A stretch of 64,000 bases of DNA from a virus, in IMG/VR virus record IMGVR_UViG_3300020160_000328, positions 1 to 64,000 of that record. The stretch is one strand, 5' to 3'. This document shows positions 12,901-64,000 of this stretch, piece after piece; positions within the stretch are counted from its first letter, which is position 1, and every line of letters begins with the position of its first letter. The position numbers were made by a program, and so were the translations under genes. The notes under the pieces were generated by a model. That model had not been told where the DNA came from and ran no database searches. It was given only the letters and a program-made list of their open reading frames with translations.

Positions 12901-15900
12901 ATCTTGTAAGCTAGTAGCTAAAGCATCTTTAATAGTTTTAATGTATACTTTCTTGTTGTAATCTATAGAAGATATAATAAGATTTTTTAAAGAAGATACT
13001 AATTGTAAGTTCTCTAAATTACTTAAACCTTTAATCTTATTAGATTTAATAGCTTGTATAGCTTCTTGTTGTTCCTCATTTACATTCCATCTAGAATTAA
13101 ATGTGTTATCTATATTAAAGTTATCTAACATAGAGTTCAAGAAATCTTGTTCTGATTCTGAAAGATTACTTTTAGCTTCTTCTACAATAGAACTAAATTC
13201 TTGTTTAGCTATATTTTGTGCTGCATTAGAAGCAGCCTGTGCTGCTTTATCTAATGAAGAATTACTATTACCTACAATATCATAACCATTGTAAGGAGGT
13301 AACTCAAAGTTAGATTTACTTTTTGAAGATTCAAAATAGATCATAGGTTGTACATCTAATACCCATTTATCTTTACCTTCAATAGTTTTAATCTTATGAG
13401 ATATAATGTTAGTTCTTAAATTATCTTTTACTGTATCATTATAAGTTCTAGCACCAGGTATGATTTCTCCTTTCTCATTTACATTAGAAATAAGAATATC
13501 ATCTTTACCTAATGTACCTAAGTTAACTGCAAATTGAGATTTCTTAACAATACCTCTTTCAGGATGAAATAACTTATCAAAATTACTCATTGTAATTCCA
13601 ACAGCATCTCTACCTGCTACTTCAGTAATTCTATTACCAATACCTATTTGTCCTCTGTAATTTTCCTCATTAGGTTTGAACTCTCCTTTATGTAATACTT
13701 GTATAGCATTAGGAATAGATTTCCATTGTCCTGTTTTGTTATCTAAGTACTTATTATCAAAGTAAGTAATACCTGTTTTATGAAAACTATTATTAGCTAC
13801 TTTATCTAAAGTCTCATTTGTTTTACCCATCTGTACAAATAAACCTGTATAATCTGCTATGTTAGTAGAGATATTTATACCAGTATCTTTTTGTACTTGT
13901 TTTTTTAATTCCTCTGCTTTACCTAATGTAAAGTTATATTTATCTTCTATTTGTTTTCTTAGTTCAGAATTATCAGAGTTATTTAATATGATAGAAGATA
14001 GTACTCCATATTTAATATTATTAAATACTCTCTCATCAAGATCTGCTTTTAAGTTATCTGTAGCTACAGGAGAATTATTCATTGTATGTAAAACCATATG
14101 AATAGGTTCTCCATTACTATTCTCCATTGCAACTCTTAAGTCAACAACAGTTCCATTAGCAAACATAGGGTTACCATTTTCATCTAATTGATTTATATCT
14201 ACATTAGTAGCACCTTTGAATACTTTACCTTTAGAAGTTTCTATAACATATAAGTTACCTTGTTTTTTAACTATACCAATAGTAGACTCTCCAGTAGCTT
14301 GACTTATAGTCAATGGAGTTTTATCTATATGGTTATTAGTTTTATCTAAACTACCAAAATGTGTAGAAGATATTTCTATCTCATTGTTACCTGCAATTAT
14401 TTGTTTTCTTAATTCTTTAACATTGTTAAAACCTTCATCTGCTATAGCTTGTTGTTTTTCTACACCTTCTCTATCAGATATATTTCTTTCATTATACCAA
14501 GATGGTTCATGTATCATAAATAAAGGTACAGGATTAGATTTCTCATCTGCTGTATAAGTTGCAACCATAGGAACTTTAGCAGCCCATAAGTCATTACCTT
14601 CTACTAGTTTACCTTTATTTTTTATTTTATATAATCCCCAAGTTGTATTCAAAGCAGTACCATCAGATAAATATTCTGTCATTGGAATATCATCTAAATC
14701 CATTTGAACTACTTTTAACTTCATCCCTGGTTTAATAAAACTATAATCTAATATAAAGTGATTATCAACTAAGTCATTAGTTTTTAATTCTCTATTTAAT
14801 ACAGTCCAAGTTACATCATCTATTCTTTTAGAATCTTGTAAATTAAAAGCAGCCTTTAATCCTGCATTAGCAGTTCTTCTATCCTCAGATTGGAATGAAT
14901 CTATATCTACAGATTGAGCTTTTCCATTTAAGTCAAACTTATTTTTCTTAGCTGTATCTTCTTGTAATTGATATTCTTGTTTCTTAACAGCTTCAACTAC
15001 TTCTTGTTCAGAAGAATTATCTATATGATTTAAAGCTTCATTTAATAAAGCATCATCTACATTGAATAAGCTTTCATATACTTCATCTCTGTTAGATACA
15101 TCTCTACCTATAGCTTGCCAAGCATCTGTAAATACATTGAATAAATCTTCTACTTGTGCATATGTATGTTTTCTAATTCTACTCTCAATAAAATCTTTTA
15201 GATTAGCTTTCTTATCTAATTGTTCATCTAATCTATCTGCTACAGTTTGAGTTAATTGTTTTAAACTAGTACTAACATTACCTGTACTTCTTCTAGAGAA
15301 TGTAGGCTCATCTAATACATCATCAGGAGCTTGTTCATTTTGAGATAGAATTAAGTTAAGCAAATTATCATCTGCAACTTCAGGAGCTTCAGAAGACTCT
15401 ACAATACTCTCAGGTTTAGGTATAGAATCTACAGGATTAACTCCTAAGTTTTCTTTAACCTCAATCTCATTTACTTTCTCTTGAGCTTTTTTTAATATTT
15501 GATTATCTTTAGATAACTCAATTAATCTAACTTCATCAGTTTCAATATCTCTAACTTGTAGATATCTTTTTTCATCTTCTACTTTTATATCTCCTAATAT
15601 TTCTTCATTAGGTTTTAACTCTGTAGATAGTTTTCTAGATAGTTCATATATAGAATCCTTATCAACTGCTGTAGCTAATACAGAAGATGCTTCTAATTGT
15701 TTTTGTTTTTTTATTTGTGCAGCAAAGTAATCTTGATTAAGTGGATTAGTTTGGTTATTTAATTCACTCTCATTTTCAAAATCTAAATCTTCAACTAAAG
15801 ATTTATGATTTCTTAACTCTATTAATTCTTTTACATTACCTACATTATTTTTAATTAACTCATTTACATATTTTAATTGAGCTGCATATGTTTCATTTAA

Positions 15901-18546
15901 ACCTGTGATCTCACCAGTGTTAGTAGTTTCATTAATACTAACATTAGCATTAGAGTTATCTTGTTCATTCTCTAATGAGTCTAAAATAGCATTAATATCT
16001 TGATAGTTATAACCTCTTTGTTTGTTATACTTATCAATACTTTCTTTACCTTCTAAAGTAGTCTTATCTATTTTAGCTTGTAGATCTTTAACAGTTTGTT
16101 CTGTAAGTACTTTGTTTATACCTAATTGTGCTATAGTACCAAAGTTTACTTTACCACCATGCTCTTCTCTTATGTTAGATAATTGTTTAACTACAGATAA
16201 AGCATTTGTAGCATTAGCTCTAGTATCTTCAGATAAGTTTTCATTTCTTGAAGTTCTAATTAAACTCTTTTCAAAAGAATCTAAAGTTCCAGTCTCTAAT
16301 GCTTTAACAGCTAAATTAGTAAATGATTTTTTCTCTAATCTATCTGCTTCTTCTTTCTTACCATCAGTTCTTAACTCAGCTACTTTTCTTTGGTAGTCTT
16401 GTAGTTCAAATAATGAACCACCTGTATTCATAATAATATGCTCAGCTAAATTATCATCTGTAATAGCCTTATCTATATTACTATATGTTTGAGCTAATTG
16501 TTTTTTAGTTTCTTTATTTTGTTTCCAGTTATCTCTATACTCTTTATTAGTAGTGTAGTTAACTGCATGTGAACTTGCACCTAAACCACCAAATCCTACA
16601 CCCATTAATAATGTTTGTGCAACTACATCCCCATAGAATCTAGCAGCTTGACTATCTTTAAAATCAACTTCTTTACCACTTGAGTCATGACTAAAGTCGT
16701 ATAAAGATTTTAATTGTTTAGCATAGTCTTCTTGATAAGTAGGTGTAAGTTGAACTGCAATCTCTTCTAAAACCTCTCCAGGTAAACTATGAAATATCTT
16801 AGCTCCTCCTGTATGAGATGCAGCAGATTGTGACATCTTACCTAAGTAAGTATCATTAACAATTTCTCTACCTTTTCTGTACATGTTAGTAACAGGACTT
16901 AAAAACTTCTCAGCTTTAGTACCTGCCATAGCTTTAGCTATTCTAGAACCTTTAAATAGTTTATCTCCTAATTGACCTACATACTTCTCAGCAGCAAGTT
17001 CTTTTATAGATTCAGTATAACCATATATAAAAGCATCTTTCTCAGATACATCAGCTTCTATGTTATTTGTATTAGGATCATAGATAGTACTTAAAGCATC
17101 AGATACTTCTTTCATCTTACCTCTAATTTGAGATAGTTTATTCAAATCATCTTCAGTCTTTTTAGGCTTACTATCTATTTCATGTTCTTGTTGTTTTAAT
17201 ATAGCAATAGAGTTTTTAGCTTCTTTCTCATATGCTTTTCTAGCAGATGCAGAAACTAAAACTTTTTCATTACCTTCTGAATCAGTTACTAATTGTGTTT
17301 GTCCAATATATTTTCTTGCAGCACTATCATAAGTTGCAGGCATTGCAAGAGATTGTGTTAATACATTACCTGTACCAATAAGACCTTTTTCAACAAAGTT
17401 AATAGTAGCTAGTTTAGCTAATTGTGCTTTAGTTAATTGTGCTCCAATCTCTCCACCTAATATAGTACCAAGAGCTAATCTTTCTGTTAAAGGAGTTACT
17501 ACAGCTTTAGTAGCTGCACCTCCCCAACCTCCTACAGGAGCTGTTAATAACATTTGTTCCATAAACACAACAGAGTGTCCTGTACCTTCTCCTGTTCTAT
17601 ACCAGAATCTATTAGCTGATAAATCTAAATTCTCAGTTTGTTGTTGTAAGTTGTATGCTTGTAATAAATGTTCTTCTTGTATACTAAGAGGTTTACCATC
17701 TCTTTGTTTAGCTGCTGCTACACTTACATTAAGTTTATCTCTCAATGGTAATAAACCTGCTGTAGCTAAACCATCAGAAGCAGTTCCTAAACCATCTAAT
17801 AAACCATCTTCACCATTTAAGAATTTCTCTAAAATTTCTTTTTGATTCTTTAGTATGTTAATAGCACTTCTTTCTCCACCTACTTGATTTTCAATTTGAG
17901 CATCCATAAGACCCATAGTAGATACACCAGCAACTCCTGCATTTTGCATGTTTCTGTTTACATCATCCCAATCTATTTGAGGACCTTCATTTTTAAATTT
18001 CTCTAAATGTTCATTTACATTTTTAAGTTTAGCTTTAGCAATTGGTTCTTCAACAATTCTTTTTTGTTTTACAAGTTCTTTATATTGTTTCTTTTCATTA
18101 TCAGACATACCCATAGTGTCTGGTGTAACTGCATCAGCTAACCAGTATATAGGTGCAAAAATATTAACTCCATTATCATCAAAGAATGAAGAATTTCTAT
18201 CTGCTGTTTTAGCCCAGTTCTTGTTTTCTAACTTAGCTATTTTATCTTTAATGTCTTTATAACCTTTATAAGTTTCTTTTGGAACTTCTTTAGCTACTGT
18301 GGCTTCAAATTCAGTTTTAGGAGCATACTTCTCATTCTCTTTTTCTTCAGCTAGTTTTTGTTCATACTCATGAAGTTGTTGTTCAACTTCTTTTTGTTTA
18401 TTCACATCTTCTTCTAAAAAGTCTTGTTGCTCTTTATTTAACTTAGGTAAACTTATAGGTTTATCAAATGTTAAATCTGATTGTCCATAAAGTGTACTGT
18501 TTGTATTTTCTATCTGACCTTGTAACCAACTTCTTCTTTTTGCCAT
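3907..18546 (-). CDS. Giant virion-packaged RNA polymerase polyprotein (crAss-like vRNAP) with a zincin-like domain and a C-terminal SF1B helicase
   Basis: 4879 aa; FRIPTSSHQS and catalytic LGEDYDIDK (DxDxD at 8788-8802); EEIIH zincin-like motif; helicase motifs GYAGTGKTT, IIDEASM, VGDDAQ, TIHKSQG, YVAVTRA. Confidence 0.9.
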   Translation of the reverse strand: MAKRRSWLQGQIENTNSTLYGQSDLTFDKPISLPKLNKEQQDFLEEDVNKQKEVEQQLHEYEQKLAEEKENEKYAPKTEFEATVAKEVPKETYKGYKDIKDKIAKLENKNWAKTADRNSSFFDDNGVNIFAPIYWLADAVTPDTMGMSDNEKKQYKELVKQKRIVEEPIAKAKLKNVNEHLEKFKNEGPQIDWDDVNRNMQNAGVAGVSTMGLMDAQIENQVGGERSAINILKNQKEILEKFLNGEDGLLDGLGTASDGLATAGLLPLRDKLNVSVAAAKQRDGKPLSIQEEHLLQAYNLQQQTENLDLSANRFWYRTGEGTGHSVVFMEQMLLTAPVGGWGGAATKAVVTPLTERLALGTILGGEIGAQLTKAQLAKLATINFVEKGLIGTGNVLTQSLAMPATYDSAARKYIGQTQLVTDSEGNEKVLVSASARKAYEKEAKNSIAILKQQEHEIDSKPKKTEDDLNKLSQIRGKMKEVSDALSTIYDPNTNNIEADVSEKDAFIYGYTESIKELAAEKYVGQLGDKLFKGSRIAKAMAGTKAEKFLSPVTNMYRKGREIVNDTYLGKMSQSAASHTGGAKIFHSLPGEVLEEIAVQLTPTYQEDYAKQLKSLYDFSHDSSGKEVDFKDSQAARFYGDVVAQTLLMGVGFGGLGASSHAVNYTTNKEYRDNWKQNKETKKQLAQTYSNIDKAITDDNLAEHIIMNTGGSLFELQDYQRKVAELRTDGKKEEADRLEKKSFTNLAVKALETGTLDSFEKSLIRTSRNENLSEDTRANATNALSVVKQLSNIREEHGGKVNFGTIAQLGINKVLTEQTVKDLQAKIDKTTLEGKESIDKYNKQRGYNYQDINAILDSLENEQDNSNANVSINETTNTGEITGLNETYAAQLKYVNELIKNNVGNVKELIELRNHKSLVEDLDFENESELNNQTNPLNQDYFAAQIKKQKQLEASSVLATAVDKDSIYELSRKLSTELKPNEEILGDIKVEDEKRYLQVRDIETDEVRLIELSKDNQILKKAQEKVNEIEVKENLGVNPVDSIPKPESIVESSEAPEVADDNLLNLILSQNEQAPDDVLDEPTFSRRSTGNVSTSLKQLTQTVADRLDEQLDKKANLKDFIESRIRKHTYAQVEDLFNVFTDAWQAIGRDVSNRDEVYESLFNVDDALLNEALNHIDNSSEQEVVEAVKKQEYQLQEDTAKKNKFDLNGKAQSVDIDSFQSEDRRTANAGLKAAFNLQDSKRIDDVTWTVLNRELKTNDLVDNHFILDYSFIKPGMKLKVVQMDLDDIPMTEYLSDGTALNTTWGLYKIKNKGKLVEGNDLWAAKVPMVATYTADEKSNPVPLFMIHEPSWYNERNISDREGVEKQQAIADEGFNNVKELRKQIIAGNNEIEISSTHFGSLDKTNNHIDKTPLTISQATGESTIGIVKKQGNLYVIETSKGKVFKGATNVDINQLDENGNPMFANGTVVDLRVAMENSNGEPIHMVLHTMNNSPVATDNLKADLDERVFNNIKYGVLSSIILNNSDNSELRKQIEDKYNFTLGKAEELKKQVQKDTGINISTNIADYTGLFVQMGKTNETLDKVANNSFHKTGITYFDNKYLDNKTGQWKSIPNAIQVLHKGEFKPNEENYRGQIGIGNRITEVAGRDAVGITMSNFDKLFHPERGIVKKSQFAVNLGTLGKDDILISNVNEKGEIIPGARTYNDTVKDNLRTNIISHKIKTIEGKDKWVLDVQPMIYFESSKSKSNFELPPYNGYDIVGNSNSSLDKAAQAASNAAQNIAKQEFSSIVEEAKSNLSESEQDFLNSMLDNFNIDNTFNSRWNVNEEQQEAIQAIKSNKIKGLSNLENLQLVSSLKNLIISSIDYNKKVYIKTIKDALATSLQDHLVPVYNTNKSILANLSNLPEEKRMVQNERGQSLQDVILKLQSNIETMDTIFEQGDKLISTKKDNLGSITKELNTLFGTNLEEEDIEENEDSFSKSFLEKELKLSYSVGLRLSLFGVPTLNSNKNQVTGFLNLPKYHNVDDVINILLDITSTMNSNWDTLVSRLDAAYEDRGLPIYQQLKNKLNALPDYLKNELLYKSIAKKLTIYKILNSPIYGYNSKGQQIITGYDLSVLDENSSKEDMRLRNSIKDGFISSSFGQTDDAGDIILNRQYTENAQKALSKYILDNGKSADETKVREIFNHFGLGVFNDNTIKEYLKGNNPFEKNTGILWFVNQKLNDLIKADKDKKDSKKILLTEKTNNLFNNANSALDKLVQLEVMLNGSFVSNSIRVAGKTMQGVIANTSIYDITQELKDFENSDLFKALKNNALTKNNTIIELLENDAKFNQAFSVGFSSPDSYKVHGKNNFGDTDFDKIAEQDNIATTFALYTNTKGNPTLSDPNFKKGLSFRIGQLTTPTLSDKGRMVYLTTALLDLKSDNITFDGDTVALDDNVLSYLSEQLFESDLNRIVQSYKNGKTNIKEYDVASKIFTSLPSLNSIDYKGKNIHEYLRDPDFEKASPEVMQELRTQAKAKIAAYVNSELNSKINSKGTEGQFVQFDMYDNTVEDEKESGIRVKNIDTEYLNSKPGETSLDKLRYVTTEFIINNILNLNNIHQVYLGDIAYYSKAGKISGMAFNTDGTIDTSRISDPKVYGSILEGIGVIIDKRAASLIAPGLKLANSDNKLYKNNTHYMHIAVNDVESMSSVIRELVESQYGKFENEASKALDEVLSIDEKINSTQDSNEIKALEKRKKVLIESHLSELKDYFNITGTDAQEYTTWKAHIDTLYRQGKLTDEDERIISSAYEKLSNGQEVNAEELKTLMQPIKPVYTGLVPEGNLIRPVYIKSSSFPLLPQVTKNLKIDEVRKKLETLEERSGTVVRMSYQTANKIGARNTKLSMEDLYSKDINELYTEDNTGLLNSAISVLPTKNFKVQQETPSKEEKAYKKGKDSYITMGSQFFKVITGNGINHITEKIFPNLFSQDILDMNGVLPVKGKLSGQDLDKIYKNIYSEYSQTLKDDLYSELGLNDRRSFEQLSEPQQNEIITNLQRIIKKEIVERGYPNYLEESVRLVEEAGILKTEMPLMFDANSHKFESLLLAIVSSRLINHKLPGNSHISASSEGFERITNLEAISEKTRNGIVWLGDRGPGELKSTINKDGQIVESEVLIKSHYKVRYVNGQDEQGNDTYGFKYIDLQSDEYSEPIITDGKITGRKLKQDKIDEQLLSQFSFRIPTSSHQSGVVLKVAGFLPTEAGDLLLVPKEHTVQLGEDYDIDKRYIYKSNYYVDSKTGSIKKLQYEENVKASIETINSILTQEDITSDKLVSALTQSNLVDEAQELRDEIVDMGVNANSEGLIKVGKKALNKLKLKMLENSLIDIYKSVYQSPNDEIQRKIFRPLVTDTAEETSSLMDKYLSTDKDYTNFSILSDNYQRYLLKLGADGKGGIGVHSNAVTLEAQLQKIDNDNKVRIVDHYDLETQAPIYFDETIGRGLTSEGWLGKSYKTLDGGRDVADQHGENQNVSTDNINKQIMGKRNENTHTMSVYAFMAHLGFDLTLDKVNTGIGESTKLHVPSLLMNQPVIRDYVELKEKYSSITAEFSKDTDSKILEELGKRYNFVPLKNQFGVYSLTNFMEGNVYSEASNEMTGQKLWDNLKKDNVSSNIQAAALQKFFRFQAKALELSQYQQLINLSTSELGISYFEVMQRIETLNNLGRTNSFENSNNLVGNAISDYEYLELPMEERKEYTKVGEFYWKPNTIEGTMLINSLKSAQDVLPIFFPYEAKAYQDVVNRIFTVKNIDPNKKSSSVLKLKYEIMSNLNDFISSDTGIFQGNANNERARLFKDTDTNKSLAKILKELKESRHPIMNNLLLKDFKFEINKDGSGISLISHLASNSTSFDKISKYESFNELLQSDEVLGEFNGETLTSQKLAQDLASYAYLADNENGATGFRNFISVDYLKVLQSTDKFRNMFDKIKDGQENTLMDNFVTQFFQHNPDRAYTLNPNNQVDKGFVAIKGELAKANTLEEFRLENETPEFVSVRDGSIKTSNKKYILFKYNEDSDSYKRIDVLGTRGYNEYNSNNPVQTTIVKNNVFKKGTFKIDNIGGVRSYINKDTRLRTKLPSVNELLPSSLGLEGILQKIYDSEKTSQEYKNFINELKDYVKLDVKFEYAPMSNGTFGQYNRDTNTITISSTIVEDALLQTNGSFNDAINIVKEVIFEEIIHSMTVNEIKKYIQSEDKTTGKVTLIENAPLFANKLVALYEAARQEVPYDERDISTYYSKDIYEFIAGVFVSPDYRAKLEEKQEGFMDRFKKMLRDLFGIFYNNSTGKTLKYNDEIFGAIKDLLKTEKEISPDNKGIELKEAKPTLQEVIQEDRVEVLEVEVQRVEPIKEQSKIINNGKIILNKDQEKAFNEIIEFFNNKDRKTHSLIGYAGTGKTTLLNIIKEKIDNPFSNVIFTSPTHRANAVIKLKNKDAKVYTLHQLLGLNIEQDLETFDSKDAKFTPQNNLKVNQDDVVIIDEASMINDELFNLINNYLDNMGVKILYVGDDAQIKPVKQTHKSKALTSTEAQSKLTIVERANNNSLLNESMNVRNTGDFSYTTNIDNNKGIAFTNSRVQFLTKAFDMFKSEEFKENPLLLRILSGTNKVVEETNNSIREALFGKEAKEYESGDIIMGYGNWKVDFKTKQPKLNNGGDYKIISSKETTNNIAGEKVKGFEVEIKNILDSEQSSFRGFIISKDNSEEILNSIGSYYEQLRLNAIQQPKGSPASARAWATLTEFKDSFLSPVDIKHNGYTKIGKTLDYGYSHTIHKSQGGTYKYSFILDDTISSFQDSELKSQLKYVAVTRAEDASFILTTHKIEQTNKPIVQENKETKVLEFDMSKFTSGGDSYDSRRNNFRLPEIKKC

Positions 18547-54069: not shown

Positions 54070-54237
54070 ATGTATAGATTTCACATATCATATAAAGACC
54101 TTGAGAAGAATGATAAATTCTTAAGAGGTGCTAATGTTATTCTTCAAGAAGATAATATTATAGAAGCATTGCGTACATTTCAAAATGAGTATCATAACAC
54201 AGAGATTCAAGGAGTCTTAAGATCAATTGTAGAGTAA
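54070..54237 (+). CDS. 55-aa hypothetical protein (MYRFHISYKDLEKNDKFLRG...)
   Basis: Stop overlaps the AAA+ start (TAATG coupling). Confidence 0.6.
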   Translation: MYRFHISYKDLEKNDKFLRGANVILQEDNIIEALRTFQNEYHNTEIQGVLRSIVE

Positions 54238-55568
54238 TGCACGAAGAAAATAAATACGAAGTAGCAGAAGTAATTGAAGATAAGGGAACAATAGTACCTG
54301 ACTTTGATTTAGATAGATTAGCTAAAGACATTGATGATGTCTTTCAAAAGCAATTAGAAAGAAAAATAAGTGAACTTAGATTAGATTCTAATAAATTGTT
54401 ACATGAAGTTGATGATAAATTAACTGAACAATTTACAGGATTTAAACAAAGAGTTGACTCTATATTTCCTGATATTAAAGAAAGATTAGTAGAGGAAATA
54501 CAAAGAGGTAGAACTATTATTGTTTTACCTAGTACACAAGAAATTAATGTACAACATATGGATCATCCTGTAACTGAAGGTGCTATTAAATCACTACAGT
54601 TACAAAGAAAACTTATGTTAGTAGGTCCAGCAGGAACAGGTAAGACTACAATGGTAGAGAAAATAGCAAAATCATTAGATATTGCATTTTATAAATACTC
54701 TTGTTCTAGAGATTCATCTGTACATGATTTATTAGGTTATAAACAACCAACTTCAGAAACATATTTAGAAACAACATTTCTAAATGCTTATGAAAATGGT
54801 GGTATATTCCTTGTAGATGAATATGATGCAATGTCTGGAGATATGGCTCTATTCTTTAATGGTGTAGCAGATAATTCTAAATTCATATCTATTCCTCATA
54901 GAGATACTAAACCACAAGCAGAGAAACACAAAGACTTTTATTTAGTTATGTGTGGTAATACTTGGGGTAAAGGTTCTACTGATTATTCAGGTAGAGATTT
55001 TCAAGATATGGCTCTAATGGATAGATTTAGATTTTGTAGACATCATGTTGGTTATCATCATTTACTTGAAAAAAAGTTTATGAAACATAATTATGAGAGT
55101 ATATCAAGATTAAGATCTGCATTAGAAAATGTAGGTTCTTATTTATCTACAAGAAATGTAGAAGATATTGCTATTTTAATTGAGTGTGATGTACCATTTA
55201 CTAATATATTGGATATGGTTCTTCAAGATCTTGCAGAAGATGATAAAAGAAGAATTAAAGATTCATTAAGAAGTGAAAGAGTTACAAAATCAGCACCAGT
55301 TCAAAGAGAGGTACAAGAACCACAAAGACCTAATTTTGATCCTACTTTAAATGTTAGAGATGGTCAAGGTAGAATCTTTAAGTTAACAGATTTAATGAAA
55401 GCTTATCCAGTTAATCAACCACATAGAATGGAACAATTAAAGACAAGAGATAAAGTTCTACATGGTAGATACTTAGGTATGTTAATGCAACAAAGTATAC
55501 CTACATCTGGTATGGTAAGTAGTGATTGGGAGGACCATAATGGAGTTATTAGATCAAGTAGCTGGTAA
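54237..55568 (+). CDS. MoxR/CbbQ/CobS-like AAA+ ATPase
   Basis: GPAGTGKT, FLVDEYD, CGNTWGKG, DMALMDRF. Confidence 0.9.
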   Translation: MHEENKYEVAEVIEDKGTIVPDFDLDRLAKDIDDVFQKQLERKISELRLDSNKLLHEVDDKLTEQFTGFKQRVDSIFPDIKERLVEEIQRGRTIIVLPSTQEINVQHMDHPVTEGAIKSLQLQRKLMLVGPAGTGKTTMVEKIAKSLDIAFYKYSCSRDSSVHDLLGYKQPTSETYLETTFLNAYENGGIFLVDEYDAMSGDMALFFNGVADNSKFISIPHRDTKPQAEKHKDFYLVMCGNTWGKGSTDYSGRDFQDMALMDRFRFCRHHVGYHHLLEKKFMKHNYESISRLRSALENVGSYLSTRNVEDIAILIECDVPFTNILDMVLQDLAEDDKRRIKDSLRSERVTKSAPVQREVQEPQRPNFDPTLNVRDGQGRIFKLTDLMKAYPVNQPHRMEQLKTRDKVLHGRYLGMLMQQSIPTSGMVSSDWEDHNGVIRSSSW

Positions 55569-58038: not shown

Positions 58039-59730
58039 ATGACTAAATCTAATTCAAAATTAGCTAGTATTATAGGTGAAAAAAAGCCTAAACAAGAATT
58101 AGTAGAAGCTAAAGCTATCCCAAAACCTGATGCTAAGAATCAACAAGGATTACCTGCTTATACACAAGATATGTGGTTAAAATTACTTACAATGTTAAAT
58201 ACATTGAAGTTACAACCACAATATTACAGAACAGAACAGAAGACATTAAAGGAATTACAAGATCTTATTAAGCTTTGTGCTACACAAGATTTGTATTTTA
58301 CTTGTCAATGTATTGTATATTCTAGATGTCTTGGAGAAGGTATGAGAACTATTTCTCATGCAGCAGCAGTATTTGTAGCTCCTTACATTTCAGGTCAAGA
58401 ATACTCTAAAAGATTCTATGGACCTTGGGATAAGAAAAAGAAAAGAGGTGGATTAATCTATAGACCTGATGATATGAGTGAAATCATATCAGGATTTGTA
58501 GCTTTAAATGGTGAGTATAAAACTACCACTATTACCACAAAAGAAGGTACTTCTACTACTGTAGATATTTCAGGTACTAAGTTAACTAATGCAATGAAGA
58601 AAGGTTTTAAAGCTGCTATTGAATCATATGATACATATAGTTTGCTTAAATACAAATCTTCATTAATTGATGTTATTAATTTAGTACATCCAAAACCTTC
58701 AGAATCTCAAGCTACTGTTAAAGTAGAAGGAGAAGATGTTTACACTATTGATGCTATTATGAGAGGTATGAATGTACTAGCTGAAACTTGGGAAGTATCT
58801 CAAGGTGAAGCAGGTCAGATAGTAGCTAAAGCTGTAAAAGAAGGTAAACTAGATGAAACTGAAGCTAAAGAAGTATTAACTCAAGCTAAAGCTGATAATT
58901 GGGCTGAATTGTTAGATAATAACAAATTACCTATACTAGCTTGTCTAAGAAACTTAAGAAACATTCTTATTAACAATCCTACACAGGCTACTGTTGATAA
59001 AGTATGTGCATTAGTTTCTAATCCTAAGTTAATACTTGAAGGAAAGATATTTCCTTATCAATTAGATTTATCTAATGAGATTATGCTTACTGAGTTTAAT
59101 GATGGTAAAGCAAGACAAATATCACAAGCATTAGCTAAAGGATATGAACTAGCTATACCTAATCTTAAAGCTTTATTACCAGGTGATAATGTAATCTATT
59201 TAGACCAATCAGGTTCAATGGGTACACCTATTATATTGAGTGGTAAAGATAGAAAGTATGGTAAATCTCAATGTATTGATAAAGCTGCCCTAATTGCTGC
59301 TACAATAGCTAAAGCAACTAATGCTGATATTATTGTATTTGGTTCAACTGCTAAATATGTATCTTATAATCCTAATTTAGATGTATTCACATTAGCTAAA
59401 CAATTATCTTCTGCTCATATGGGTGGAACTAATTTGTCTACAGCTTGGAATGCAGCTCAAAACTCTGGTAAGAAATATGATAGAGTATTTATCTTATCAG
59501 ATAATGAAGTAAATCAAGGTAGTACATATAATGCTTATACATCTTATTTAAGAGCTGTAGGTAGTCCTTATGTATATTCTGTAGATCTAGCTGCTTATGG
59601 TACAAATTGTATTGCAGGTGATAAAGTTAGATATTACTATGGTTATGGATTTAGTATGTTTGATGATATTGCATCATCAGAATTTAATGCTAATTATCAT
59701 ATTGAGAAAGTTAAACAAGTAATTATATAA
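58039..59730 (+). CDS. rsr: TROVE/Ro60 (Rsr-like) RNA-binding protein
   Basis: 563 aa; N..G.PAY, GMRT, RPDDM.EI, Y.LLKY, DVINLVHPKP, TWE, LRNLRNI, PYQ; C-terminal vWA with DQSGSM, GGTN, ILSDNE, YSVDL..YG. Confidence 0.92.
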   Translation: MTKSNSKLASIIGEKKPKQELVEAKAIPKPDAKNQQGLPAYTQDMWLKLLTMLNTLKLQPQYYRTEQKTLKELQDLIKLCATQDLYFTCQCIVYSRCLGEGMRTISHAAAVFVAPYISGQEYSKRFYGPWDKKKKRGGLIYRPDDMSEIISGFVALNGEYKTTTITTKEGTSTTVDISGTKLTNAMKKGFKAAIESYDTYSLLKYKSSLIDVINLVHPKPSESQATVKVEGEDVYTIDAIMRGMNVLAETWEVSQGEAGQIVAKAVKEGKLDETEAKEVLTQAKADNWAELLDNNKLPILACLRNLRNILINNPTQATVDKVCALVSNPKLILEGKIFPYQLDLSNEIMLTEFNDGKARQISQALAKGYELAIPNLKALLPGDNVIYLDQSGSMGTPIILSGKDRKYGKSQCIDKAALIAATIAKATNADIIVFGSTAKYVSYNPNLDVFTLAKQLSSAHMGGTNLSTAWNAAQNSGKKYDRVFILSDNEVNQGSTYNAYTSYLRAVGSPYVYSVDLAAYGTNCIAGDKVRYYYGYGFSMFDDIASSEFNANYHIEKVKQVII

Positions 59731-60705: not shown

Positions 60706-60755
60706 AAAATATTTAACCTATCTCTTGGTAGGTTAAATATTTTTCTTTAAATTTG
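60706..60755 (+). promoter_or_regulatory. Terminator hairpin overlapping a Bacteroidota promoter that likely drives the tmRNA/tRNA/Y-RNA region
   Basis: AAAATATTTAACCTATC/GGTAGGTTAAATATTTT hairpin; TTG 60725-60727, 20-nt spacer, TAAATTTG 60748-60755. Confidence 0.65.
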
Positions 60756-61311: not shown

Positions 61312-61426
61312 ATAGGGTAGTTATAGTAAACTTACTTCGTGAAATTGGTATACACATTTGTCTTAAGAACAAACTTTTGCTGGTTCAAGTCCAGCAGTAA
61401 TAAATGTTTACTAACTTTCTCCCTAT
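61312..61426 (+). ncRNA. Y-RNA-like element E1 with tRNA-Leu(TAA)-like cargo
   Basis: Stems ATAGGG/CCCTAT and TAGTAAAC/GTTTACTA; TTACTTC at 61332; D, anticodon (TAA) and T arms inside. Confidence 0.75.
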
Positions 61427-61430
61427 AAAT

Positions 61431-61503
61431 GGTCTATAGGTCAAATGGTTAAGATATCCCACTGTCTCTGGGTATGGAAAGGGTTCGACTCCCTTATAGA
61501 CTG
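61431..61503 (+). tRNA. tRNA-Asp(GTC)
   Basis: Cloverleaf; loop CTGTCTC; T-loop TTCGACT. Confidence 0.9.
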
Positions 61504-61505
61504 CA

Positions 61506-61627
61506 AATAAGAATAGTAATAATTAACTTACTTCGTGCTTTTTGGAAAGCATTTCACTTTTAATGAAACAATCAGGTTCAAATCCTGCGGGAGAGATCCC
61601 ACTAGTTAATTAAATTTCTTTCTTATT
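61506..61627 (+). ncRNA. Y-RNA-like element E2 with tRNA-Lys(TTT)-like arms
   Basis: Stems AATAAGAA/TTCTTATT and TAATTAAC/GTTAATTA; TTACTTC at 61528; arm TTTCA-CTTTTAA-TGAAA; T-arm CAGG-TTCAAAT-CCTG; extra GGGA/TCCC hairpin. Confidence 0.75.
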
Positions 61628-61631
61628 ATTT

Positions 61632-61703
61632 GCCAAATTAACACAATGGTAGTGTACTGCATTTGTAACGCAGAGGTTATAAGTTCGAATCTTATATTTG
61701 GCT
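61632..61703 (+). tRNA. tRNA-Thr(TGT)
   Basis: Acceptor GCCAAAT/ATTTGGC; loop TTTGTAA. Confidence 0.9.
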
Positions 61704-61733
61704 CAATGTGTTCATTGATTTATTGGTTATAAT

Positions 61734-61807
61734 AGCTCTATAGCTCATTAGGATAGAGCAACAGATTTCTAATCTGTGGGTGGTAGGTTCGAATCCTACT
61801 AGGGCTA
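61734..61807 (+). tRNA. tRNA-Arg(TCT)
   Basis: ACAGA-TTTCTAA-TCTGT; canonical D and T arms. Confidence 0.92.
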
Positions 61808-61811
61808 CTAC

Positions 61812-62028
61812 AAGAGTGGTAAAAAATAGGTTACTTCGCAAAAATTCTATGAGAGTTCTTCTCATAAAACTTGATACTAATGGTATCTTACTAAACACTA
61901 TGAAAATTAGACAGTTAAATGGGGTAAATTTAAACAAACGAAATTTAACAAACTTTTACTAATTTAGTTATAAATTGGAACCTTTATTGGAAGGATAAAC
62001 CAATAACCCTATTTTTAATTTCCCTCTT
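61812..62028 (+). ncRNA. Y-RNA-like element E3 with a long multi-hairpin cargo
   Basis: Stems AAGAG/CTCTT and AAAATAGG/CCTATTTT; TTACTTC at 61831; internal hairpins TATGAGA/TCTCATA, GATAC/GTATC, TTATTGG/CCAATAA. Confidence 0.7.
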
Positions 62029-62033
62029 TTTAA

Positions 62034-62119
62034 GGACTGATAGCCTAGAGGTCAGGCAGCAGACTGTTAATCTGCCCAAAGGAGCAATCCCTACATTGGT
62101 TCGAATCCAATTCAGTCTT
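62034..62119 (+). tRNA. tRNA-Asn(GTT) with a long variable arm
   Basis: GCAGA-CTGTTAA-TCTGC; variable arm GGA-GCAA-TCC. Confidence 0.85.
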
Positions 62120-62122
62120 CAA

Positions 62123-62189
62123 AGGAATAGTAATATAAGAGTTACTTCGTAAGCTATACAAAAAATAAACTCTTATAATTTTCTTTCCT
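62123..62189 (+). ncRNA. Y-RNA-like element E4 (minimal, A-rich loop)
   Basis: Stems AGGAA/TTCCT and TATAAGAG/CTCTTATA; TTACTTC at 62142. Confidence 0.72.
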
Positions 62190-62193
62190 AAAT

Positions 62194-62267
62194 GGTCTTT
62201 TAGCTCAATTGGTTAGAGCAGTCCCCTCATAAGGGAAAGGTTCCAGGTTCAAGTCCTGGGAGGACCA
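62194..62267 (+). tRNA. tRNA with CAT anticodon (Ile2 or elongator Met)
   Basis: Loop CTCATAA; canonical D arm GCTCAATTGGTTAGAGC. Confidence 0.88.
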
Positions 62268-62268
62268 C

Positions 62269-62340
62269 AAATAGTATACTAAAAACAGCACTACAACAGT
62301 AATTTATATAGAGTGTGATTGTTTACTGATGTACTATTTA
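62269..62340 (+). ncRNA. Irregular long hairpin between tRNAs (candidate ncRNA)
   Basis: Nested pairings AAATAGTATA/TGTACTATTT, AAACAG/TTGTTT and CACT/AGTG. Confidence 0.35.
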
Positions 62341-62343
62341 TTT

Positions 62344-62414
62344 ACCTTGTTTGCATAATGGAAGTGCCATTGTTTTACATGCAATAGGAGGTAGTTCGAT
62401 TCTACCACAAGGTA
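62344..62414 (+). tRNA. tRNA-Val(TAC)
   Basis: Acceptor ACCTTGT/ACAAGGT; loop TTTACAT. Confidence 0.85.
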
Positions 62415-62419
62415 CAAAC

Positions 62420-62490
62420 GCATCGTAGCTTATGGAAGCAACAGGTCTCCAAAACCTTGTATGGAGTAGGTTCGATTCCTACACTTTGTG
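62420..62490 (+). tRNA. tRNA-Trp(CCA), acceptor stem with mismatches
   Basis: AGGT-CTCCAAA-ACCT; T arm GTAGG-TTCGATT-CCTAC; acceptor GCATCGT/ACTTTGT. Confidence 0.7.
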
Positions 62491-62495
62491 CAAAA

Positions 62496-62568
62496 GGGTC
62501 TCTGGTGTAACTGGTGTGCACGCTAGTCTGAAGAACTAGAGGATAAGGTTCGAGTCCTCGGGCTTCCA
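62496..62568 (+). tRNA. tRNA-Phe(GAA), acceptor stem with mismatches
   Basis: CTAGT-CTGAAGA-ACTAG; acceptor GGGTCTC/GGCTTCC. Confidence 0.72.
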
Positions 62569-62584
62569 CAAATAAATTAAAGTT

Positions 62585-62746
62585 ATGGGTTACAAAGATG
62601 AAAATATAAAACACAGAGTAGGTGTATTAACACCTAAGAAAGGTTTTAAATGTCCTAAATGTGGGGATGATAAGATCTATACAAAAGCAAGCCTTGTTGT
62701 ATGTCCTTCTTGTAAGAAGATAGTTGAAGGTAAAGATTTAAAATAA
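62585..62746 (+). CDS. 53-aa zinc-ribbon protein
   Basis: MGYKDENIKHRVGVLTPKKGFKCPKCGDDKIYTKASLVVCPSCKKIVEGKDLK, two CxxC; not in the ORF track. Confidence 0.7.
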   Translation: MGYKDENIKHRVGVLTPKKGFKCPKCGDDKIYTKASLVVCPSCKKIVEGKDLK

Positions 62747-62753
62747 AATATAT

Positions 62754-62828
62754 TGTGGAGTGGACTGGAAGTGGTGCCAGCTCAGTCTCATAAGCTGAAT
62801 TATGTGAGTTCGAGTCTCACCTCCGCAA
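62754..62828 (+). tRNA. tRNA-Met(CAT)
   Basis: Acceptor TGTGGAG/CTCCGCA; TCAGT-CTCATAA-GCTGA. Confidence 0.8.
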
Positions 62829-62833
62829 CAAAG

Positions 62834-62974
62834 AAGAGTAGTAAAAAGAAAGTTACTTCTATGTGGCAGACGTAGTATAGGTTCAAATCCTGTCATACTC
62901 CCTAAAGTAATACAAATGGAGTATGTAGTGTAATTGGTTAGCACACGAAAATTACTTTCTTTATTTTCTCTCTT
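62834..62974 (+). ncRNA. Y-RNA-like element E5, YrlA-type, with a circularly permuted tRNA-His-like module
   Basis: Stems AAGAG/CTCTT and AAAGAAAG/CTTTCTTT; TTACTTC at 62853; order is GTG remnant, T-arm ATAGG-TTCAAAT-CCTGT, loop-closed acceptor CATACTCC/GGAGTATG, then D-arm TA-GTGTAATTGGTTAGCAC. Confidence 0.85.
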
Positions 62975-62979
62975 TAATT

Positions 62980-63050
62980 CTAGAAACGAAGCTAGGTTTC
63001 ATGCCACACTTGGACTGTGGAGTACGCAAGTTCGAATCTTGCTTTCTAGA
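62980..63050 (+). tRNA. tRNA-Pro(TGG), atypical D arm
   Basis: Acceptor CTAGAAA/TTTCTAG; CCACA-CTTGGAC-TGTGG. Confidence 0.8.
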
Positions 63051-63071
63051 CTAATTTAAAACTAAACTATC

Positions 63072-63263
63072 ATGTCAAAATCAGAAACATCAAGTAAAGG
63101 TATAGGTTTTGGAGGATTATTAACAGTACTATTTATTGGTTTGAAACTTACAAATCATATTGCATGGTCTTGGTGGTGGGTATTATCTCCACTATGGTTA
63201 CCTGCTGTAATAGTATTAGGAATAGTCTTAATTGCTTTAATTTTTAAAGCTGTATTAACTTAA
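63072..63263 (+). CDS. Small membrane protein
   Basis: LTVLFIGLKLT..IAWSWWWVLSPLW, a common small phage membrane-protein motif. Confidence 0.8.
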   Translation: MSKSETSSKGIGFGGLLTVLFIGLKLTNHIAWSWWWVLSPLWLPAVIVLGIVLIALIFKAVLT

Positions 63264-63268
63264 TACAT

Positions 63269-63339
63269 TCCCCTGAAGCTTTAAGGTGAAGCACATCACT
63301 TTTAATGATGGGAAGTTGGGTCAGTACCACCCAGGGGAA
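63269..63339 (+). tRNA. tRNA-Lys(TTT), non-canonical T loop
   Basis: Acceptor TCCCCTG/CAGGGGA; CATCA-CTTTTAA-TGATG; T loop GTCAGTA. Confidence 0.78.
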
Positions 63340-63344
63340 CAATT

Positions 63345-63427
63345 GCAAGAGTGGCTTAATAACGAACTGGTATAGTAAGTAGTTTTAGAAACTACTAGCT
63401 TTGTGGGTTCAACTCCCACCTCTTGTA
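63345..63427 (+). tRNA. tRNA-Leu(TAG), extended D region and short variable arm
   Basis: Acceptor GCAAGAG/CTCTTGT; GTAGT-TTTAGAA-ACTAC. Confidence 0.75.
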
Positions 63428-63434
63428 CAACAAT

Positions 63435-63520
63435 GCCTTCATGGTGGAATGGTAGACACGAGGGACTTAAAATCCCTTCCTCAGAAATGGGGGGTGCAAG
63501 TTCGAGTCTTGCTGGAGGTA
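63435..63520 (+). tRNA. tRNA-Leu(TAA)
   Basis: AGGGA-CTTAAAA-TCCCT; long variable arm. Confidence 0.92.
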
Positions 63521-63649
63521 CAAGTATTGCAAAGATACTGATTAAAAACCTGTTCCCTGTCCTCATAACAGCTATAAGGCAGCTAGGAGTTGAATGTACA
63601 TTCGGGGTTATAAAAAGTACAAGGGTAAGTTAGGGTTCTTACCAAATTT

Positions 63650-63735
63650 GGAGAGGTGTCAGAGATGGATTATTGTATCACTCTTGAAAAGTGATGGGTG
63701 TAACAGCCCCCTGGGTTCGAATCCCAGTCTCTCCT
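63650..63735 (+). tRNA. tRNA-Ser(TGA)
   Basis: Acceptor GGAGAGG/TCTCTCC; TCACT-CTTGAAA-AGTGA; long variable arm. Confidence 0.9.
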
Positions 63736-63900
63736 CAACATCCTGTACCCTTGAATCTTTGCTTTATATGTGGATAAAGCTCCCTGTATAAACATAAAAA
63801 GAGTAAACTCGTGAGCAAGTAATATTGTGGCAAACAGGATTAACTTGTGGCAAGCAGGTACTGGACCTGAAATAAAAGGGTAATAGAATAAGGTCCAAAT

Positions 63901-63985
63901 AGAGAGGTGGCAGAGTGGTTTATTGCACAGTCCTGCTAAGACTGCGGGTGTAAAAGCTCCAAGAGTTCGAATCTCTTATTCTGCA
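63901..63985 (+). tRNA. tRNA-Ser(GCT), poorly paired acceptor stem
   Basis: CAGTC-CTGCTAA-GACTG with good D, variable and T arms; acceptor AGAGAGG/ATTCTGC has 3 mismatches. Confidence 0.65.
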
Positions 63986-64000
63986 CATTTTTGCTGCGTT

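What the first reader, a model, noticed from the sequence alone, without database searches (positions are those of the whole stretch)
62834..62974. E5 is a circularly permuted tRNA-His mimic that keeps the G-1:C73 identity pair
Seen: the 3' tRNA half (ATGTGGC anticodon remnant, T arm, CATACTCC) precedes the 5' half (GGAGTATG, TA, D arm), joined by a 16-nt loop. The 8-bp acceptor helix matches the extra G-1:C73 pair of tRNA-His. This T-acceptor-D order is the known YrlA topology. Inference: it is derived from tRNA-His, and cleavage of the loop could leave a His-like acceptor end on a Ro-bound RNA.
Basis: partly seen in the sequence, partly recalled or inferred. Interest (0 to 1): 0.75.

Follow-up and report, generated by a model that had tools for sequence, protein, structure and literature searches.

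The report
Phage Y RNA shaped like tRNA-His
A small RNA gene in a phage tRNA cluster is a rearranged tRNA look-alike held in a stem that most likely binds the phage's own Ro60 protein; it looks like tRNA-His, but its relatives show those His-like features are mixed at random, so His mimicry is unproven.

Summary
Window 62833-62975 folds into a long two-part stem. That stem encloses a small hairpin carrying GUG, a T arm, an 8-bp closed acceptor-like helix (G:C on top, 16-nt loop) and a D arm.

It lies 3.1 kb downstream of a phage Ro60 (TROVE+vWA) gene on the same strand, between two tRNA genes. It belongs to a large family: I parsed 78 distinct members from viral contigs and more from metagenomes. 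All share the same stem motifs and the T-acceptor-D order. GC-richer members link the family to Rfam YrlA at 24-46 bits, but E5 itself does not match that model.

Unlike canonical YrlA, 59 of 78 members keep a local hairpin at the tRNA anticodon-arm position. The module therefore looks like a whole cloverleaf permuted at position 26/27.

The His reading is only partly supported:
- The permuted cloverleaf carries GUG, G-1:C73, a GUGU/GCAC D stem and a UAGU variable loop, as in some phage tRNA-His genes.
- An 8th acceptor pair is the family norm (44 of 60).
- G:C occurs as often without GUG (11/58) as with it (7/34).
- The link between D-arm type and GUG failed on an independent sample.

Most likely E5 is a Ro60-bound Y RNA of a new YrlA variant. 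Loop cleavage and histidylation remain untested.

The parts
58039..59730 (+). Phage Ro60 orthologue (563 aa, TROVE + Ro60-type vWA domains), the presumed protein partner
   Evidence: Pfam TROVE E=9.4e-8 and vWA_Ro60 E=1.7e-6; TROVE hit in the whole record. Same strand, ends 3.1 kb upstream of E5.
62754..62829 (+). tRNA-Met(CAT) gene immediately upstream. Its 3' processing would define the 5' end of E5.
   Evidence: ARAGORN; Rfam tRNA 39.7 bits.
62833..62841 (+). P1, 5' strand of the outer stem (GAAGAG.AG)
   Evidence: Fold; pairs with 62968-62975.
62836..62844 (+). GAGTAGTAA motif. It occupies the place of the GNCGAA-type Ro60-binding motif of YrlA and is shared by all six scaffold elements of this phage.
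   Evidence: six copies. GC-richer relatives have GGCGTAG or GGCGAAG at the same place. Ro60 binding is inferred.
62845..62853 (+). P2, 5' strand of the inner stem (AAAGAAAGT)
   Evidence: Fold; pairs with 62954-62962.
62852..62859 (+). GTTACTTC junction motif. It contains the YUAY conserved in YrlA and is invariant in relatives.
   Evidence: invariant columns; YUAY described in PMC4201824.
62856..62872 (+). Anticodon-arm homologue CTTCT-ATGTGGC-AGACG (4 of 5 pairs, GUG at 62863-62865). It competes with the hairpin CTATGT-GGCAG-ACGTAG at 62859-62875.
   Evidence: E5 lacks one base relative to the family register, so this arm is degenerate.
62873..62876 (+). Variable loop TAGT. Its last base, U48, can form the Levitt pair with A15.
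62877..62893 (+). T arm ATAGG-TTCAAAT-CCTGT
62894..62901 (+). Acceptor-like helix, 3' strand CATACTC plus C at the position of C73 (62901)
62902..62917 (+). 16-nt loop CTAAAGTAATACAAAT closing the acceptor-like helix. It resembles a tRNA 3' trailer (CTAA..) followed by a 5' leader (..AAAT).
62918..62925 (+). Acceptor-like helix, 5' strand: G at the position of G-1 (62918) plus GAGTATG
62926..62944 (+). U8-A9 and D arm GTGT-AATTGGTTA-GCAC (A14, A15, G18, G19 and A21 present)
62945..62953 (+). Single-stranded linker ACGAAAATT between the D arm and P2'
   Evidence: A-rich linkers occur at this place in relatives.
62954..62975 (+). P2' (ACTTTCTTT), internal loop ATTTT and P1' (CTCTCTTT). Together they carry the conserved TTTTCTC 3' motif.
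62980..63050 (+). tRNA gene immediately downstream (anticodon loop read by eye as CTTGGAC, Pro UGG). Its RNase P site would define the 3' end of E5.
   Evidence: Rfam tRNA 37.3 bits. The same Met-Pro order occurs in L002 and L011.

Best explanation
E5 is a phage-encoded Y RNA of the YrlA class.

It is probably cut out of a long tRNA-cluster transcript by the enzymes that trim the flanking tRNA-Met and tRNA-Pro (inferred).

Its two ends pair into a long bipartite stem. The internal loop of that stem carries GAGUAGUAA on the 5' side and UUUUCUC on the 3' side, where YrlA has its GNCGAA and CUUGUC motifs. This stem most likely binds the phage Ro60 ring (inferred from co-location and motif position).

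The other end is a nearly complete tRNA cloverleaf, circularly permuted between positions 26 and 27, with its acceptor stem closed by a loop. It should fold into a tRNA-like L shape: A15:U48, G18 G19 and U54 U55 C56 are present. It would act as the effector domain that brings a tRNA-binding partner, or host PNPase as shown for other Ro60-Y RNA particles, to Ro60.

The module descends from a tRNA of His/Gln body type, most simply from the junction of two tandem tRNA genes. Whether the cell still reads it as tRNA-His is not shown.
For: - The fold has the T-acceptor-D order.
- A Ro60 gene lies 3.1 kb upstream on the same strand. This meets the 4-kb same-strand rule of PMC4201824.
- Six elements in this phage share the scaffold motifs.
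- I parsed 78 distinct relatives with the same motifs and arm order from viral contigs.
- TROVE is present in all 3 near-complete records I tested that carry close relatives.
- Ro60 lies within 0.3-5.7 kb on the same strand in 13 loci.
- The acceptor and T helices covary.
- The Levitt pair N15:N48 is G:C or A:U in 72 of 78 elements.
- GC-richer family members score 24-46 bits against Rfam YrlA, with E down to 1e-8.
- A tRNA origin is supported by HMM scores of His 27.2 and Gln 24.8 against below 10 for other isotypes, and by N73-CCA relics in 8 of 60 acceptor loops (P = 4e-6).
- The E5 loop resembles this phage's tRNA trailers (N73-C-A/U-A-A) and leaders.
- Leu-type relatives score 27-33 bits against tRNA-Leu and below 13 against other isotypes.
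- Known biology: Y RNAs tether Ro60 to PNPase, and a Thermus phage Ro60 does so with host PNPase (PMC12135203).
Against: - E5 does not match Rfam YrlA RF02553 even at E = 10.
- It lacks the literal GNCGAA motif.
- No expression, processing or Ro60-binding data exist.
- I found no close orthologue of E5. The positional counterpart in the nearest relative, L011, is a scaffold without a tRNA-like insert, so conservation of this particular copy is unproven.
- The E5 anticodon-like arm is degenerate (4 of 5 pairs in a shifted register), and a competing hairpin is more stable in isolation (-4.9 against -1.9 kcal/mol).
Confidence: 0.75

Rival explanations
1. RNase P and a 3' trimming enzyme open the 16-nt loop and CCA is added. 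The result is a two-piece RNA, still held by the long stem and bound to Ro60, that presents a true tRNA-His acceptor end (G-1:C73) and a GUG loop, and that HisRS can charge.
For: - G-1:C73, GUG, U33 and G37 are all present.
- The acceptor helix has the 7+1 bp length that RNase P needs.
- M. smegmatis YrlA, with a 7-bp helix, is cut by RNase P and gets CCA in vivo (PMC4201824).
- The loop begins like this phage's tRNA trailers and ends like its leaders.
- The phage's ordinary tRNA-His has A73 and two U.U mismatches.
- Two other elements, L243 and L181, combine GUG, G-1:C73 and the GUGU D stem.
Against: - G-1:C73 is not linked to GUG in the family (7/34 against 11/58, p = 1.0).
- An 8th pair of any kind is the family norm (44/60).
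- Many relatives close the helix with stable tetraloops.
- The E5 anticodon-like stem is imperfect.
- The base after C73 starts CUA, not CCA.
Confidence: 0.12
2. The tRNA-like module is a decoy. Its exposed anticodon-like loop and tRNA shape draw off host enzymes that attack tRNAs during phage defence (anticodon nucleases). The closed acceptor end keeps it out of translation. This is a function for the module and is compatible with Ro60 binding.
For: - The hairpin loops of the family keep the anticodon-loop signature (7 nt, U33, R37) far above chance: 59 observed with at least 4 bp against a shuffle mean of 24.
- They carry many different triplets.
- Several such RNAs sit in one phage beside a full tRNA set.
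- Phage tRNA clusters are thought to counter tRNA-targeting defences (general knowledge).
Against: - There is no direct evidence.
- The triplets are not concentrated on known nuclease targets.
- Canonical YrlA works without any anticodon loop (bioRxiv 10.1101/312249).
Confidence: 0.1
3. E5 is a true permuted tRNA-His gene. The long stem is excised and the ends are ligated, as in algal permuted tRNAs. The loop is then removed, giving a normal tRNA-His.
For: - All four arms are present in permuted order, and ARAGORN calls the un-permuted sequence tRNA-His.
- The authors of the YrlA structure raised this possibility for YrlA.
Against: - ARAGORN calls almost any insert once the other three arms are good.
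- No bacterial splicing endonuclease is known.
- The phage has no RtcB.
- The phage already has a tRNA-His.
- In 3 of 4 phages I checked, the triplet of the element duplicates an ordinary tRNA.
- The same stem encloses non-tRNA inserts in sister elements.
Confidence: 0.02
4. E5 is a decaying, functionless relic: a tRNA dimer junction that landed in one copy of a repeated scaffold.
For: - No orthologue with this insert exists in the nearest relatives.
- The anticodon-like arm is degenerate.
Against: - The acceptor helix is a perfect 8 bp.
- T and D arms are intact, with every tertiary-contact base.
- P1 and P2 pair perfectly.
- The family is very large and covaries.
Confidence: 0.06

Closest known systems
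YrlA (Y RNA-like A; Rfam RF02553; Chen et al. 2014, PMC4201824; crystal structure in bioRxiv 10.1101/312249)
   Same: - Encoded near Ro60 on the same strand.
- A long terminal stem carries the Ro60-binding motif.
- A conserved YUAY is present.
- The T arm comes before a closed acceptor-like hairpin, which comes before the D arm.
- The tRNA tertiary-contact bases are present and the Levitt pair covaries.
- YrlA is already known in phages (mycobacteriophages).
   Different: - E5 has no match to the Rfam model.
- The 5' motif is GAGUAGUAA, not GNCGAA.
- The D stem is GUGU/GCAC, whereas the Rfam consensus is GCUC/GAGC.
- The anticodon arm is a local hairpin with a 7-nt loop, followed by a normal 4-5-nt variable loop, so the permutation point is 26/27. 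In canonical YrlA the anticodon stem is made by the two ends and the anticodon loop is absent.
- A 9-nt linker follows the D arm.
- The acceptor helix is 8 bp, against 6 bp in Salmonella.
M. smegmatis YrlA (PMC4201824)
   Same: The acceptor-like helix is of tRNA length. This is the precedent for RNase P cleavage in the loop followed by trimming and CCA addition.
   Different: Processing of E5 is untested. E5 adds a possible G-1:C73 pair and a GUG-containing hairpin.
Bacterial tRNA-His
   Same: - GUG in a U33...G37 loop.
- G-1 opposite C73.
- A D stem and variable loop like the tRNA-His genes of related phages.
   Different: - The order of the halves is permuted.
- The acceptor end is closed.
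- CUA, not CCA, follows C73.
- The anticodon stem is imperfect.
- The body scores equally well as tRNA-Gln once the anticodon is masked.
Circularly permuted tRNA genes of Cyanidioschyzon merolae and other algae, and of Thermofilum pendens (Soma 2007; Chan 2011; cited)
   Same: The 3' half precedes the 5' half, the acceptor stem is first made as a closed loop, and the ends are paired.
   Different: Those genes are matured by the archaeal/eukaryotic splicing endonuclease and a ligase, which are not known in bacteria. E5 sits in a Ro60-type scaffold shared with non-tRNA inserts.
Thermus phage phiLo Ro60 with Yrl1/Yrl2 (PMC12135203)
   Same: A phage-encoded Ro60 with Y-like RNAs encoded next to it. 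The complex recruits host PNPase.
   Different: The phiLo RNAs were found through a CGAA motif. The passages I read do not describe them as tRNA-like. The phage group is also different (E5 comes from a crAss-like phage).

Membership tests
YrlA-class Y RNA | T stem-loop 5' of the D stem-loop, with a closed acceptor-like hairpin between them | tested here: met
   Fold and my own scanner. The helices covary in relatives.
YrlA-class Y RNA | Encoded within about 4 kb of a Ro60 (TROVE) gene on the same strand | tested here: met
   Ro60 is at 58039-59730 (+) and E5 starts at 62833 (+).
YrlA-class Y RNA | tRNA tertiary-contact bases, including a covarying 15:48 Levitt pair | tested here: met
   E5 has U8, A14, A15:U48, G18 G19, U54 U55 C56 and G53:C61. 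In the family, N15:N48 is G:C in 37 and A:U in 35 of 78.
YrlA-class Y RNA | GNCGAAN0-1G motif near the 5' end (presumed Ro60 contact) | tested here: inconclusive
   E5 has GAGUAGUAA at that place. Relatives show GGCGAAG, GGCGUAG, GCCGUAG and GUAGUAA at the same position before P2.
YrlA-class Y RNA | Conserved YUAY before the variable region | tested here: met
   UUAC lies within the invariant GUUACUUC. The feature is described in PMC4201824.
YrlA-class Y RNA | Score at or above the Rfam RF02553 gathering threshold (69 bits) | tested here: not met
   No hit over E5 at E up to 10. Relatives in loci that carry the same scaffold motif reach 24-46 bits, also below threshold.
YrlA-class Y RNA | Bound by Ro60 in vivo | not testable with these tools
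   Needs co-immunoprecipitation or a gel-shift assay.
tRNA-His | GUG anticodon in a 7-nt loop on a 5-bp stem | tested here: inconclusive
   The loop AUGUGGC has U33 and G37, but the stem has 4 of 5 pairs only in a register shifted by one base relative to the family. A competing hairpin is more stable.
tRNA-His | G-1 paired with C73 | tested here: met
   G62918:C62901. In the family this pair is not linked to GUG: 7/34 against 11/58.
tRNA-His | Free 5' end and 3' CCA acceptor end | tested here: not met
   In the gene the helix is closed by a 16-nt loop, and C73 is followed by CUA. Later processing cannot be tested here.
tRNA-His | Body sequence closest to tRNA-His rather than other isotypes | tested here: inconclusive
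   Isotype HMMs built from 264 phage tRNAs give His 27.2 and Gln 24.8. With the anticodon masked they give Gln 18.2 and His 16.1.
Functional permuted tRNA gene | Supplies a tRNA missing from the genome and has a splicing/ligation route | tested here: not met
   An ordinary tRNA-His lies at 65721-65794 of the record. There is no RtcB in the phage. Whether the junction forms a bulge-helix-bulge motif was not examined.

The most novel reading that the evidence does not exclude
A large group of phage and metagenome YrlA-like RNAs, E5 among them, are complete class-I tRNA cloverleaves permuted at position 26/27. They keep a working anticodon arm. In the AT-rich phages their trailer-and-leader-like acceptor loops are opened by RNase P and 3' trimming. 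The products are Ro60-tethered, two-piece tRNAs that can be aminoacylated, with E5 charged by HisRS.
Probability: 0.1. Interest if true: 0.85.

Novelty: new variant of a known kind. Interest (0 to 1): 0.5.

Why it matters
The job of the tRNA-like half of bacterial Y RNAs is still unknown, and so is their origin.

E5 and its relatives keep marks of their tRNA parentage that canonical YrlA has lost:
- an anticodon-arm hairpin;
- a normal variable loop;
- a discriminator base, in some cases still followed by CCA;
- loops that look like tRNA trailers and leaders.

[quoted passage not shown] The Leu-type and His/Gln-type bodies suggest this happened more than once.

It also supplies a set of natural variants for testing. 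Their loops range from tetraloops to 20-nt trailer-like loops. They could show whether such RNAs are opened by RNase P and charged, and what the anticodon-like loop is for.

It shows as well that the current Rfam YrlA model misses a large phage branch of the family.

Tried and rejected
1. **ARAGORN on the un-permuted sequence.** It calls tRNA-His. It also calls a tRNA for nearly any insert length in every element. I therefore gave it little weight.

2. **Link between the GUGU D stem and GUG.** The first sample suggested one (4/21 against 0/57, p = 0.004). That sample was biased by a search pattern that required TAGTGT. On newly fetched GUG-bearing elements the link was not significant (5/39 against 2/51, p = 0.23).

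3. **G-1:C73 as a conserved His mark.** Rejected: the frequency is the same with and without GUG.

4. **Search for orthologues of E5.** BLAST against 158 fetched loci found only about 70-74% partial matches to other family members. The positional counterpart in L011 has no tRNA-like insert.

5. **Pseudoknot between AAGUAA in the acceptor loop and UUACUU in the junction motif.** It is possible in E5, but the complementary sequence is not kept in relatives' loops.

6. **Rfam YrlA.** No match to E5.

7. **Phage collection DNA search.** It hit only the neighbouring tRNA-Met.

8. **First covariation count.** It used columns shifted by one and was discarded. One search is the corrected count. Its D-stem columns are still off by one and are not used.

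9. **Two reviews.** Sim and Wolin 2018, and the 2020 Annual Review on bacterial Ro60 and Y RNAs, are not held.

Full report
**Setting.** The window is the first 64 kb of a 97,777-bp virus record with direct terminal repeats. Its Ro60 protein is most similar, among named phages, to proteins of crAss-like gut phages. A tRNA cluster runs from about 61.3 to 66.2 kb. ARAGORN finds 18 genes and Rfam finds a few more. A 563-aa protein with TROVE and Ro60-type vWA domains is encoded at 58039-59730 on the same strand.

Six intergenic elements in the cluster share the pattern [stem]-RUAGUWA-[stem]-UUACUUC ... [stem]-WUUUCY-[stem]. The finding concerns the fifth, E5.

**The observation.** It is correct as written. 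The fold of 62825-62985 gives:
- an outer stem (62833-62841 with 62968-62975);
- an inner stem (62845-62853 with 62954-62962);
- a small hairpin;
- a T arm (62877-62893);
- an 8-bp helix, CAUACUCC with GGAGUAUG, closed by a 16-nt loop (62894-62925);
- UA;
- a D arm (62928-62944).

The top pair of the helix is G62918:C62901. The element starts 4 nt after tRNA-Met and ends 5 nt before the next tRNA. Processing of those two tRNAs would therefore release it; this is inference.

**What it is.** The T-acceptor-D order next to a Ro60 gene is the definition of YrlA (PMC4201824). E5 does not match Rfam YrlA, so I looked for relatives.

- The Ro60 protein retrieved 10 viral loci.
- A scanner for T arm, 7-bp hairpin and D arm, checked against an ARAGORN map to remove tRNA dimers, found the same kind of element inside the same scaffold in those loci.
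- Two DNA patterns built on the scaffold motif and the T loop retrieved many more loci.
- In all I parsed 78 distinct elements.

GC-richer members have GGCGUAG or GGCGAAG where E5 has GUAGUAA, and CUUGUUCC where E5 has UUUUCUC. Loci that hold them contain elements scoring 24-46 bits against Rfam YrlA, with E down to 1e-8. TROVE genes were found in all three near-complete records tested that carry close relatives of E5. A Ro60 gene lies within 0.3-5.7 kb on the same strand in the 13 loci where tblastn could see one.

Covariation supports the structure:
- The acceptor and T helices covary.
- The Levitt pair, which my scanner did not constrain, is G15:C48 or A15:U48 in 72 of 78 elements.

I conclude that E5 is a Y RNA of the YrlA class, in a branch that the Rfam model does not reach.

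**How it differs from canonical YrlA.** In the Rfam consensus and the Salmonella crystal structure, the two ends of the RNA form the anticodon stem, and there is no anticodon loop.

In this family, UUACUUC is followed by a local hairpin of 5 bp with a 7-nt loop. A 4-5-nt variable loop (AGGUC, UAGU) follows, and then the T arm.
- 59 of 78 elements have at least 4 of 5 pairs, against a shuffle mean of 24 and a maximum of 38.
- 27 have 5 of 5, against a shuffle mean of 3.4.
- The loop has U at position 2 in 55 of 59 and a purine at position 6 in 57 of 59.
- Two of the stem pairs show compensatory changes.

A linker of roughly 8-12 nt joins the D arm to the scaffold. The module is thus a whole class-I cloverleaf permuted between positions 26 and 27. 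The triplets in the loops are diverse (GCU, UCC, UAG, GUG and about 25 others).

The E5 copy of this arm is degenerate. It lacks one base relative to the family register and pairs 4 of 5 only in a shifted register. An alternative hairpin is more stable in isolation.

**Origin.** Several results fit the dimeric-tRNA origin proposed for YrlA, with the helix made of the acceptor strands themselves.
- Eight of 60 acceptor loops begin with N73-CCA (P = 4e-6).
- In this phage the tRNA genes are followed by N73-C-A/U-A-A and preceded by A/U-rich leaders such as UAAAU. The E5 loop reads C-CUAAAG...ACAAAU-G.
- Elements with a tRNA-Leu-type D arm score 27-33 bits against a tRNA-Leu HMM and below 13 against others.

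**Is it a tRNA-His mimic?**

Evidence for:
- Un-permuted E5 scores His 27.2, Gln 24.8 and others below 10 against isotype HMMs built from 264 phage tRNAs.
- It shares the GUGU/GCAC D stem, the UAGU variable loop, the UGUGGC loop, G-1 and C73 with the tRNA-His genes of six related phages.
- Among the 264 tRNAs, the GUGU D stem is found only in His (6), Gln (6) and Val (1).

Evidence against:
- With the anticodon masked, Gln scores above His.
- The GUGU/GCAC D arm and the UAGU loop recur in 20 other family members that carry many different triplets.
- An apparent link between that D arm and GUG (p = 0.004) came from a biased sample. It was not significant on 39 newly fetched GUG-bearing elements (p = 0.23).
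- An 8th acceptor pair can form in 44 of 60 elements. It is U:A in 15 and G:C in 12.
- G-1:C73 occurs in 7 of 34 GUG-bearing elements and in 11 of 58 others (p = 1.0).

The His-like traits therefore assort independently in the family. Their meeting in E5 cannot be told from chance. Two other elements, L243 and L181, combine all three, so a small His-like lineage is not excluded.

**Mechanism.**
- Shown: the structure, its family, and its linkage to Ro60.
- Inferred: the bipartite stem binds Ro60, and the tRNA-shaped end recruits a tRNA-binding factor or PNPase, as in other Ro60 particles.
- Open: whether the trailer-and-leader-like loop is cut. The precedent is M. smegmatis YrlA. The 7+1-bp helix and 16-nt loop make E5 a reasonable RNase P substrate. 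Many relatives, however, close the helix with UUCG, GAAA or GCAA tetraloops.

A role as a true permuted tRNA gene is unlikely. The phage has an ordinary tRNA-His and no RtcB. The same scaffold also holds non-tRNA inserts.

**Novelty.** Phage Ro60 genes and phage YrlA-like RNAs are already known. I found no description of the following:
- the retention of a local anticodon-arm hairpin, with permutation at 26/27;
- the diverged Ro60-site motif;
- the CCA, trailer and leader relics;
- the size of this phage and metagenome branch.

I rate E5 a new variant of a known kind, of moderate interest. The specific His-identity claim is unproven.

An earlier follow-up in this scan on sister elements E1/E2 also filed them as variant Y RNAs near YrlA. 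I did not rely on it.

Noticed in passing
beyond the window: record positions 65100-65240 (T arm to D arm 65130-65198); L011:18516-18686: A second T-acceptor-D permuted tRNA-like element lies outside the Y scaffold. It is closed by CAATAGA/TCTATTG and has a G.U 8th pair. It is 84% identical over 129 nt in the related phage L011.
   Followed up: partly
beyond the window: record positions 65720-65794: The phage's ordinary tRNA-His has G-1 encoded but A at position 73, and two U.U mismatches in the acceptor stem. All eight tRNA-His genes of the related phages have C73.
   Followed up: partly
window 61330-64000 and record to 66204: Nearly all tRNA genes of the cluster are followed by N73-C-A/U-A-A, that is, the first C of CCA and then an A-rich trailer. 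This may be a shared 3' processing signal. The acceptor loops of AT-rich family members start the same way (NCAAAUAAU, NCUAA).
   Followed up: partly
L011:15505-15597 and L002:13278-13380: The scaffold that sits between tRNA-Met and tRNA-Pro in L011, the position of E5, has the same outer-stem sequence but only about 30 nt of A-rich insert. The tRNA-like insert is therefore gained or lost within one scaffold copy.
   Followed up: partly
L003:7522-7693, L007:6660-6835, L008:6038-6209 and 8071-8242: These are scaffold elements whose module is tRNA-Leu-like: a GCGG...ACGC D arm and a UAG loop. One copy still has A73-CCA at the start of the acceptor loop. They lie between genuine tRNA-Leu genes.
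   Followed up: partly
window 54237-55568: A MoxR-like AAA+ ATPase (AAA_5, E=2.8e-10) is encoded 2.5 kb upstream of Ro60, which itself carries a vWA domain. MoxR ATPases often work with vWA proteins.
   Followed up: no
L011:18726-18802 and L005:18409-18482: ARAGORN calls tRNAs with a CUA anticodon (labelled Pyl) in two related phages. They may be amber-suppressor tRNAs.
   Followed up: no
window 3907-18546 (- strand): There is a single open reading frame of 4,879 aa, followed by further ORFs of 1,288 aa (open-ended) and 2,039 aa. These are very large phage proteins that I did not examine.
   Followed up: no
window 60706-60743: A 17-bp perfect hairpin followed by T-rich sequence lies on the + strand just after the last ORF, upstream of the tRNA/Y RNA cluster. 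It looks like a terminator or a processing site.
   Followed up: no
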